From Eledone cirrhosa (Eukaryota): a DNA stretch of 64,000 bases. The position numbers and the translations under genes were made by a program. Location: the NCBI GenBank assembly GCA_964016885.1, contig OZ024757.1, positions 34,224,001 through 34,288,000 of the forward strand. The letters run 5' to 3'. The notes under the pieces were generated by a model, which was given only the letters and a program-made list of their open reading frames with translations, was not told the origin of the DNA and ran no database searches. The first letter of the stretch is position 1; every line of letters starts with the position of its first letter. Below are positions 7,101 through 10,100 of this stretch, piece after piece.

Positions 7101-10100
7101 ATATATATATATATATATCTAACCCATGTTAATGTGGAAGATGGATGTTAGACGATCATATATATATATATATATAAGCAATGAGTTATTTAGTTTGTTG
7201 ATTATTCAACAAATTTAATTTATAACAGATTAGAAGCACTCAACAAAATTTTTCTGGAGTATAATATCAATAATGTTAATAAATGGAAGCTATCTTTATA
7301 AAACTATATTTATTTTATTATATATATTTCAAGGGTACCAACATTTTGGTACGCTCTCATCAGATAAAATACAAAAGTTGGTTTCATTCAGACAAGAACT
7401 TAATGTTGTGAGTTCTATTGAAATATATATAATAAAGTAAATATGGTTTTATAAAGATAGCTTCCATTTATTAATATTATTGATATATATATTACAGTTG
7501 ACAAGATGCCATATACATATGTTGTATAGTTATATATATGTATACTACAACCATTTTGAGACCGATTTCCCTGGCAATGTTTGATATCCAGATGCCCTTC
7601 TTTTCACCAAACCTTTTAGTCACCTCTAACAACTCACATGCTAGTAGTATACATATATATGCAACATCTTGTTGTCTGTTGACAATCTAAGACGTCACAT
7701 ATGTTGAAGCTTACTTACATAGCGTGTAACATCTTGGTGATTTTTGGTATTCTGAGATGTTGTGTGTATTCTGTGATGTTGACTCATTACAGCTGATTGA
7801 TTTTTTATTTTTTTCAAATTTTAACAGAAACAACTGGAAGAATATCTCCAATCTGCTCTAAAATGTCGAATGTACAGAAATCACATAGAAATGGTATGGA
7901 AACAAACTTTTACAATAAATACTCTTCTGTTGTTTCATTAATTTTTCCATGTCTCAGCCAACCATTGTTATATAAAGTATTTTCTGCAAAAAGATTATGT
8001 ATGTCTGTGTGTATATGTGTATGTGTGTGTGTGTGTGTGAAGGTGTGTCGCCGAGTGGTTTGAGAATTGGATTCGCAATCATGAGGTTGTGAGTTCGATT
8101 CTGGGGTTAGATATCTTGTCTTTAATGCGTAGAAATATCTGAGACCCCCAGCAAACAACTGATGAGGAAAACTTCTCCCGTTCATGCTTTCTTCTTATTT
8201 TTAAGTATACCTTATCTAGCAACTACGCAGCCACCTCTTTTCATTTATATATATATATATATATATAAGCAAGAAAGTAAGTGTTGGTAAAATCCAGTAC
8301 TTCAGTATGCGGATAGGGAGCACTCAATGAAGATATAAGTGCCGGAGTTATAATAGTGACGAAACATAAGTCAATTGCATGAACTCATAATCCTTTATTT
8401 ACTGCTATATATATTTCGATGATAGCCATTGAATGGCTATGACCTCATCAGGCAGTTAGTCCCAAGGCTCTGATACCATCAACACTATAAACACAGAGCT
8501 GGCATATCTAAGAACTGACTAACTGCCTGATGAGGTCATAGCCATTCAATGGCTATCATCGAAATATATATAGCAGTAAATAAAGGATTATGAGTTCATG
8601 CAATTGACTTATGTTTCGTCACTATATATATATATATATATATATATATATATATATATTTGGCGGTACTCAGTAACAGAGAAGACCCGCCTTACCTAAA
8701 TATATAGTAAAACCTACTCCAGCCAGTAGGCATCTCTAACAAAATACACCCCGTCCCACCACCCCCGCCCCCACCCCATCCACACCACCCCGTTCTATGT
8801 AAAGTTATGTTGGTGCCGCGCCATCGAGGCCGAAACAAATGAGATCGTGTAGGTGTCACGACAAAAAAACACACAGTCCACGCTGTAATGTGGCCGTGTA
8901 GGCAACACGGTAAAAACCTCCCAGACCCACACTGTAAATGTGGTTGGTGTTAGGAAGGGCATCCAACTGTAGAAAACCGGCCAGACAGTCCTATGCGAGC
9001 AAGACAATCACTCTTGCCTCAAGTGGGACTACCCCCGTCCAAACCCATGCAAGCGTGGAACACGGACGTTAAACGTTGATGATGATGATGATGATGATAT
9101 ATATATATATATATATATATATATATATATATATATATATATACATACACATATATATATATATATATACATACACATATATATATATATATACATACAC
9201 ATATATATATACATACACATATATATATATATATATATATATATATATATATGTATATATATATATATATACATATATATATATATATATATATATATAC
9301 ATATATATATATATACATATATATATATATATATATATATACATATATATATATATATATATATATATACATATATATATATATATATATATACATATAT
9401 ATATATATATATATATATATACATATATATATATATATATATATATACATATATATATATATATATATATATACATATATATATATATAAAAATATATAT
9501 ACATATATATATATATATATATATATATATATATATATATATATACATATATATATATATATATATATACATATATATATATATATATATATATATACAT
9601 ATATATACATATATATATATATATATATACATATATATATATATATATATATATATATATATATACATATATATATATATATATATATACATATATATAT
9701 ATATATATATATATACATATATATATATACATATATATATATATATATATATATATACATATATATATATACATATATATATATATATATATATATACAT
9801 ACACACATATATATATATATATATATATATATACATACACACATATATATATATATATATATATATATATATATATATATATATACACACATATATATAT
9901 ATATATATATATATATATATAAAGAAGACAATCCTAGAGATAATTTATATATATATATATATATATATATATGAATTATCTCTAGGATTGTCTTCTTTCT
10001 TTCTTTTTTATTTCATCTTCTTCGCCTTATTTCCTCCATCGATCTTCTTCACTTTGTTTTGTATTTTGAATCATTTTATAATTTTAATACTAAACCTTCC

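What the first reader, a model, noticed from the sequence alone, without database searches (positions are those of the whole stretch)
8354..8625. Perfect ~108-bp inverted repeat holding two intact back-to-back minimal hammerheads in a PLD intron
Arms ~8354-8460 and ~8518-8625 are reverse complements around a 57-nt spacer, flanked by (TA)n. Each arm encodes actgc-CUGAUGA-stem II-GAAA-U-AUAU-A-UA-gcagu (AUA site). The + copy is in the sense of the PLD pre-mRNA. Inference: in a transcript spanning both arms the long hairpin would sequester the ribozyme, giving a self-inhibiting switch. Lack of arm divergence implies a recent event.
Basis: partly seen in the sequence, partly recalled or inferred. 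Interest (0 to 1): 0.75.

Follow-up and report, generated by a model that had tools for sequence, protein, structure and literature searches.

The report
Back-to-back Penelope retrotransposon ends
This hairpin is two copies of the end of a very common jumping gene, inserted back to back in an intron; each copy carries the self-cutting RNA motif typical of such elements, which is predicted to be locked inactive here, so it is likely an ordinary insertion and not a gene switch.

Summary
The repeat is real: 109-bp perfect arms (8353-8461, 8517-8625), a 55-nt spacer, and a minimal type I hammerhead motif on each strand, inside a phospholipase D intron. It is not a host switch. The insertion is larger (8268-8623). 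It is two ends (pLTRs) of a Penelope-like retrotransposon of the Hydra clade, joined head to head in a (TA)n run. One pLTR is complete, and the 'spacer' is its 5' part. A 28-mer of the arm occurs 3001 times in the genome, and longer copies carry an RT plus GIY-YIG reading frame with the Hydra-clade motifs. This layout is published (PMC8557442, PMC3846280, PMC4209133), and the scan found it before on other DNA, including in this genome. The ribozyme is predicted to be fully buried (hairpin -201 versus -11 kcal/mol) with no second state, and this class needs a same-sense partner. One extra: across copies the tail sits on one arm of head-to-head pairs, and either arm can be the longer, which favours priming from both ends of one DNA break. 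Interest is low.

The parts
7828..7893 (+). Phospholipase D exon upstream of the insertion (host gene context)
   Evidence: Open frame [21 protein letters not shown] followed by GT; a 4174-nt contig of run X4 matches only these 66 bases, with no difference; PX and PLDc domains elsewhere on +
8246..8267 (.). Left (TA)n target run
   Evidence: Sequence
8268..8354 (-).
   Evidence: 97% to the leader of long copy L065; 206 exact pLTR-tail junctions in the genome
8355..8461 (-). 5'-truncated pLTR (positions 59-165 of 165), left arm
8401..8456 (-). Minimal type I hammerhead motif of the left arm (site at 8406); antisense in the PLD pre-mRNA
   Evidence: Descriptor
8459..8461 (.). Head-to-head junction, 3-base overlap (GTC) shared by the two arms
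8459..8623 (+). Complete 165-nt pLTR without tail, right arm; its first 58 bases are the 'spacer'
   Evidence: 99% to the 3' end of L065; 577 copies start at this boundary on (TA)n
8522..8577 (+). Minimal type I hammerhead motif: stem I 8522-8526/8573-8577, CUGAUGA 8527-8533, stem II 8534-8560, GAAA 8561-8564, self-complementary AUAUAUAU 8564-8571, predicted cut after A8572
8624..8659 (.). Right (TA)n target run
   Evidence: Sequence

Best explanation
8268-8623 is a truncated insertion of a Hydra-clade Penelope-like retrotransposon, made of two element ends joined head to head in a (TA)n run of a PLD intron; it likely arose when both DNA ends at one cut primed reverse transcription, and its hammerhead is predicted to be inactive here. 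Shown: family membership, copy number, layout, target. Inferred: the element's GIY-YIG nuclease cut the TA run; one DNA end primed copying at the pLTR end of the RNA and ran to the pLTR start (right arm, 165 nt); the other primed 87 nt further on, at the tail end, and stopped at pLTR position 59 (left arm); the two cDNA ends were joined through the 3-base overlap. Both arms run intact across the ribozyme site, so the template was uncut, or re-ligated, there. In the pre-mRNA the arms would form a 109-bp duplex that buries the ribozyme, and the intron would be spliced out.
For: Family: 3001 exact hits of an arm 28-mer, 0 for the reversed control. In 12 of 12 loci picked for a long frame over the nuclease, a pLTR lies downstream of it. 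L065 reads pLTR stub, tail, reading frame, 3' UTR, pLTR. Hydra-clade motifs: RWR and DKT upstream, CxCX5C linker, no CC pair inside GIY-YIG, CxxC..E..N..CxH at the end; weak matches to GIY-YIG (E 0.008) and to a retron RT (E 0.017). Layout: among 80 loci taken in order along contig C1, 6 are head-to-head pairs and a 7th has an inverted tail-only piece; all 7 have the tail on one side, and 0 of the other 74 arms has a tail (Fisher p 5e-7). Of 31 pairs found in 126 loci, 29 have one full tail and 2 a tail stub or interrupted tail. In the 29, the tail arm is longer in 7, shorter in 15 and equal in 7, which a fixed first arm folding back on itself does not give. Papers: inverted 5'-truncated copy and one-sided tail (PMC8557442; PMC3846280); paired minimal hammerheads 100-700 bp apart on opposite strands (PMC4209133); a Penelope protein cuts and extends both strands and starts at the two ends of the tail (PMC11167929). 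Folding.
Against: The priming steps are inferred from copies; none was assayed, and the in vitro data come from another clade with a 30-40 bp tail. The rule has exceptions: of 30 loci picked for a tail, 17 show a one-tail head-to-head partner, 2 (L204, L205) form one two-tail pair, 1 is unclear and 10 show none within the locus (my count); a second likely two-tail pair is listed and was not fetched. 46 of the 126 loci were chosen for likeness to the query or for a tail, so only the 80-locus set is unbiased. Pfam finds no RT family in the long frames or homologues (0 of 2; 0 of 10), and no tree against named Hydra proteins was built. No contig among those listed spans this locus's own junction, so perfect arm identity could partly reflect assembly polishing.
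Confidence: 0.9

Rival explanations
1. Same element, but the palindrome arose by self-priming or fold-back, possibly on an antisense template, as proposed for rotifer Penelopes.
For: PMC3846280 proposes it because palindromes lie at inverted junctions. Here 7 of 29 one-tail pairs have arms of equal length, and some junctions fall in self-complementary spots (CATATG at the pLTR start, the stem II hairpin in L199). Shared non-reference letters on both arms (36 sites in 9 of 31 pairs) fit copying of one arm from the other, but also one RNA copied twice.
Against: A fold-back arm cannot be longer than its template or gain a tail the first arm lacks; both length orders occur (7 and 15 of 29). At this locus the tail is on the shorter arm.
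Confidence: 0.25
2. A host regulatory switch: the hairpin holds the ribozyme off until released, and cleavage then cuts the PLD pre-mRNA.
For: The + motif has an intact core in the sense of the gene, and sequestering is predicted.
Against: No competing state: -200.9 against -10.9 kcal/mol; core, GAAA and cut site are all paired in longer contexts and on both strands. Even alone, the motif's best fold pairs the core with stem II (-14.7). Single minimal motifs did not cleave (PMC4209133). The layout recurs in 7 of 80 unselected loci.
Confidence: 0.02
3. A MITE or fold-back DNA transposon with terminal inverted repeats and a TA duplication.
For: Inverted arms and TA on both sides.
Against: 75 of 87 arms in the unselected set are single; inner junctions differ from locus to locus; the ends are asymmetric (tail); arms continue into an RT-nuclease frame in long copies.
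Confidence: 0.01
4. An assembly artefact that mirrored one pLTR.
For: The arms are 100% identical, and none of the listed contigs bridges the junction.
Against: The insertion is asymmetric, with a tail on one side and a spacer from one arm; 29 of 31 pairs have arms that differ from each other, so the class is real.
Confidence: 0.03

Closest known systems
Hydra clade of C-terminal endonuclease Penelope-like elements (PMC8557442; section 11 and supplementary file 1 part 2 seen), e.g. Penelope-13_HM and Hydra-1_Obim
   Same: Protein motifs, (TA)n target, hammerhead near the 3' end; Penelope-13_HM is listed with a 5'-truncated inverted copy and a hammerhead on each strand.
   Different: The ribozyme sequence differs from that listed for Hydra-1_Obim, so this is another family; the long copy is about 4.0 kb against 'generally under 3 kb'; a 165-nt pLTR is sharply defined here, while Hydra-1_Obim is listed with none.
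Inverted pLTR plus optional tail of EN+ Penelopes (Adineta vaga Pen2a, PMC3846280, passages seen; PMC8557442 Fig. 2 legend)
   Same: Head-to-head pLTRs, one shorter at its 5' end, overlap at the junction, tail on one arm.
   Different: Tail of 87 nt rather than 30-40; no reading frame between the arms at this locus; any target duplication is hidden in the TA run.
Minimal type I hammerheads of metazoan Penelopes (PMC4209133, parts 1-2 of 4 seen)
   Same: 5-bp stem I, long stem II, palindromic stem III/loop fit for dimers; pairs on opposite strands 100-700 bp apart were reported.
   Different: No extra unpaired base before stem II in the fold used here; activity of this family untested.
L1 twin priming (passages in bioRxiv 10.1101/2024.12.14.628481; the original paper not seen)
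   Same: Both DNA ends prime cDNA, giving an inversion with a short overlap at the junction (works-like comparison only).
   Different: Here both cDNAs cover the same RNA segment, so the product is a palindrome; different RT and nuclease class.
Non-LTR retrozymes (bioRxiv 10.64898/2026.07.22.740005, part 1 of 5 seen)
   Same: Short, non-coding, type I hammerhead, related to pLTRs.
   Different: Retrozymes are head-to-tail tandem repeats with at least two same-sense ribozymes; this is head to head with one ribozyme per strand.

Membership tests
EN+ Penelope-like element | RT followed by a C-terminal GIY-YIG nuclease in linked copies | tested here: met
   L065 frame; RT motif columns conserved across 17 aligned proteins; GIY-YIG E 0.008, retron RT E 0.017. 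Both profile matches are weak, and Pfam RT families were not hit.
EN+ Penelope-like element | pLTR with hammerhead at the 3' end, partial tandem pLTR-tail-ORF-pLTR | tested here: met
   L065, L075, L189, L212
EN+ Penelope-like element | 5' truncation, inverted truncated copy, tail at one end | tested here: met
Hydra clade | RWK-type motif and DKT in the N-terminal region | tested here: met
   RWR and DKT read in one frame of L065 and L212; DKT in L075, where a stop follows RWRA
Hydra clade | CxCX5C linker; CCHH absent; CxxC and CxH around conserved E and N | tested here: met
   CNCRDPSLC; one Cys between the GIY and YIG halves; CNLCLSE..LLN..CRH
Hydra clade | Insertion into (TA)n | tested here: met
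   Both flanks here; 3' flanks of nearly all arms printed
Hydra clade | Placement in the Hydra clade by RT phylogeny | not tested
Neptune clade | CCHH motif in the nuclease and CX2-5CxxC linker | tested here: not met
   my first guess, dropped
Minimal type I hammerhead | CUGANGA and GAAA cores, stems I and II, NUH site, palindromic stem III | tested here: met
   two sense copies co-fold through the 8-bp palindrome with swapped stem I, though with the core mispaired
Minimal type I hammerhead | Self-cleavage | not testable with these tools
   Needs an in vitro assay
Rfam hammerhead families | Covariance-model match | tested here: not met
Non-LTR retrozyme | Tandem head-to-tail units, each with a ribozyme | tested here: not met
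   Head-to-head at this locus
MITE / fold-back DNA transposon | Fixed unit with terminal inverted repeats in most copies | tested here: not met
   75 of 87 arms are single; junctions vary

The most novel reading that the evidence does not exclude
Penelope inverted ends are made by twin priming: the two ends of one DNA break each start reverse transcription at one of the two start sites that bound the tail, on RNA that begins at the pLTR boundary and has not been cut by its hammerhead. This family, with some 200 tail-bearing copies and thousands of single ends, would let that open mechanism be tested by counting.
Probability: 0.55. Interest if true: 0.4.

Novelty: new member of a known kind. 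Interest (0 to 1): 0.15.

Why it matters
For the PLD gene it probably does not: it is one of an estimated couple of hundred similar insertions (7 of 80 unselected loci; 206 exact tail junctions). The value is in the family. How Penelope elements make inverted ends and what their hammerheads do are both called open in PMC8557442. The copies here give two usable numbers: the tail goes with head-to-head pairs, and 5' ends fall at the pLTR start 577 times against at most 24 at the ribozyme loop, which suggests that ribozyme cleavage seldom sets the template's end. Perfect intronic duplexes like this one could also be substrates for dsRNA enzymes such as ADAR or Dicer (recalled knowledge, untested).

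Tried and rejected
Rfam: no hammerhead family matched; only generic hairpin matches below gathering score. Neptune clade: first guess, dropped after the motif check. Ribozyme cut defines the 5' end: suggested by L065, which starts at the cut site, but not upheld. Of 6 copies with tail plus downstream leader (L065, L075, L189, L211, L212, L214) only L065 starts there. Of 24 genome-wide hits for (TA)n joined to the cut site, 12 are short arms starting at the loop and most others are longer arms with an expanded loop, against 5 at a control site with a shorter TA match and 577 at the pLTR start; the loop is itself TA, so cleavage and microhomology cannot be told apart. Expression and cleavage in vivo: no RNA holder listed. 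Presence/absence between individuals: two RAD-seq runs gave no depth on the unique flank 7700-8035; a second laying on the pLTR showed family variation only. PDB search with the single protein found nothing useful; the Atlas gave no result. Searches for twin priming applied to Penelopes listed no paper on it by title or abstract start; those papers were not read for it and the library lacks most subscription journals. In vitro dimer cleavage by such variants in a 2017 RNA Biology paper is recalled only; one search listed papers holding the phrase, none read. Supplements of the bioRxiv preprints were not seen and may list this family.

Full report
Observation. The inverted repeat is as described, with small corrections: arms 8353-8461 and 8517-8625, 109 of 109 bases complementary, spacer 55 nt. 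A type I hammerhead descriptor finds the motif on both arms and at one unrelated place in the window, and never in 50 shuffled windows. Rfam has no matching hammerhead model. The gene around it is a phospholipase D on the + strand (PX and PLDc matches), with an exon at 7828-7893 that a 4174-nt contig of run X4 matches alone, as a spliced transcript would (the run's type is not on record).

What it is. A search of the window's own genome (3.0 Gb) returned 87 matches from 40 of 360 candidates scored, and a 28-mer of the arm has 3001 exact hits. The shared unit is 165 nt: the 'spacer' plus the right arm (8459-8623). The left side is a second, 5'-truncated copy on the other strand followed by an 87-nt tail (8268-8354), and (TA)n flanks the whole. 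Longer copies continue upstream through a 3' UTR into a reading frame. In 12 of 12 loci chosen for a long open frame over the nuclease, the 165-nt unit lies downstream of it. L065 reads: pLTR stub, tail, reading frame (broken; longest open piece 730 aa), 3' UTR, full pLTR. The protein has RT motifs conserved across 17 aligned proteins; its best hit is from Argonauta hians, so the genome is probably an octopod's (inference). The motifs match the Hydra clade as defined in PMC8557442 section 11: RWR and DKT, a CxCX5C linker, no CCHH, CxxC and CxH near the end. Profile support for RT is weak: no Pfam RT family, one retron RT at E 0.017. No tree was built.

How it likely formed. I took 80 loci in order along contig C1 from the 28-mer list. 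One search called 87 arms in 78 of them: 6 head-to-head pairs and 75 single arms, none of the singles with a tail. One of those singles (L115) has an inverted tail-only piece beside it, which makes 7 of 80 loci with the layout seen here, each with one tail (Fisher p 5e-7). Over 126 loci, 46 of them chosen for likeness or for a tail, there are 31 distinct pairs: 29 with one full tail and 2 with a stub or an interrupted tail; the tail arm is longer in 7, shorter in 15, equal in 7. Against a strict rule: of 30 loci picked for a tail, 17 show such a partner, 2 form a two-tail pair, 1 is unclear and 10 show none in the locus (my count). A lizard Penelope protein cuts and extends both target strands and starts copying at the two ends of the tail (PMC11167929). 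The simplest reading is that each DNA end primed at one of the two sites and the cDNA ends were joined, here through a 3-base overlap. This is inference. Self-priming, proposed in PMC3846280, remains a rival and may explain the equal-length pairs.

The ribozyme. Its form is the dimer-type minimal hammerhead of PMC4209133: single motifs did not cleave in vitro, dimers cleaved weakly, and pairs on opposite strands 100-700 bp apart were already reported. Two sense copies of this motif co-fold through the 8-base palindrome, but a transcript of this locus holds only one sense copy, preceded by its antisense. The hairpin is -200.9 kcal/mol against -10.9 for the ribozyme fold, and stem I pairing falls from 0.27 to about 5e-58. 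That is an off state without an on state. At family level, 577 copies begin at the pLTR start on (TA)n, 24 patterns hit the ribozyme loop, 12 of them short arms starting there, and 5 hit a control site. Most copies, and both arms here, run across the cut site, in line with the finding that uncut RNA is the main template (PMC11167929). A circular, re-ligated template is not excluded.

Age. Arms of pairs differ at 111 of 3565 sites; 2 of 31 pairs are identical, and the chance of no difference over 107 sites at that rate is 0.03. Only 6 of 87 unselected arms equal the window's pLTR. The insertion is young within its family, though its tail has two private letters. Polymorphism and expression could not be tested.

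Comparison and novelty. PMC8557442 describes inverted 5'-truncated copies with a tail at one end, and its supplement lists a Hydra-clade element, Penelope-13_HM, with an inverted copy and a hammerhead on each strand. The listed octopus Hydra element has a different ribozyme sequence, so this is another family of a known kind. The scan's own notes hold eight similar findings, three in this genome; two of them already suggest two copying starts. I had recorded the tail pattern before that look-up (note). Papers seen: PMC8557442 (abstract, sections 3 and 11, passages, supplementary file 1 part 2 and search hits), PMC4209133 (parts 1-2 of 4), PMC3846280 (passages), PMC11167929 (passages, second part of the main text), bioRxiv 10.64898/2026.07.22.740005 (part 1 of 5), bioRxiv 10.1101/2024.12.14.628481 (passages).

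Verdict. Real feature, ordinary origin, no support for a host switch. Interest 0.15; the copy statistics are of modest use to Penelope specialists.

Noticed in passing
window 7311-7371 (-): A second minimal type I hammerhead of another family in the PLD gene, with the same self-complementary loop; the same motif occurs in one of the 80 unselected loci.
   Followed up: partly
window 61444 (-), 19709 (+), 38464 (+): Further CUGAUGA..GAAA cores that did not pass the full descriptor; probably decayed ends of other families.
   Followed up: no
L096, L116, L129; contig of run X4: A shared foreign upstream sequence is joined to this family's last 51-56 bases at the ribozyme loop: possibly a chimeric family formed at the cut site.
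   Followed up: no
L077-L156: Many unrelated minimal hammerheads lie near these insertions, most with different self-complementary stem III sequences, as expected if dimer pairing is conserved.
   Followed up: partly
pLTR start, window 8459: A sharp 5' boundary: 24 of 75 single arms and 577 genome-wide hits start here. It may be the transcription start or a nuclease site.
   Followed up: partly
window about 8840-9100 and L006 flank: Another repeat ending in (GAT)n lies beside the insertion, and a similar sequence flanks L006 (seen by eye): repeats pile up at TA runs.
   Followed up: no
window 8053-8101: Fragment of a very high-copy repeat (summed contig depth near 490,000 in run X1), probably a SINE head.
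   Followed up: no
L204/L205; G000:C1:414558343-414558607: Head-to-head pairs that appear to carry a tail on both arms, exceptions to the one-tail pattern.
   Followed up: partly
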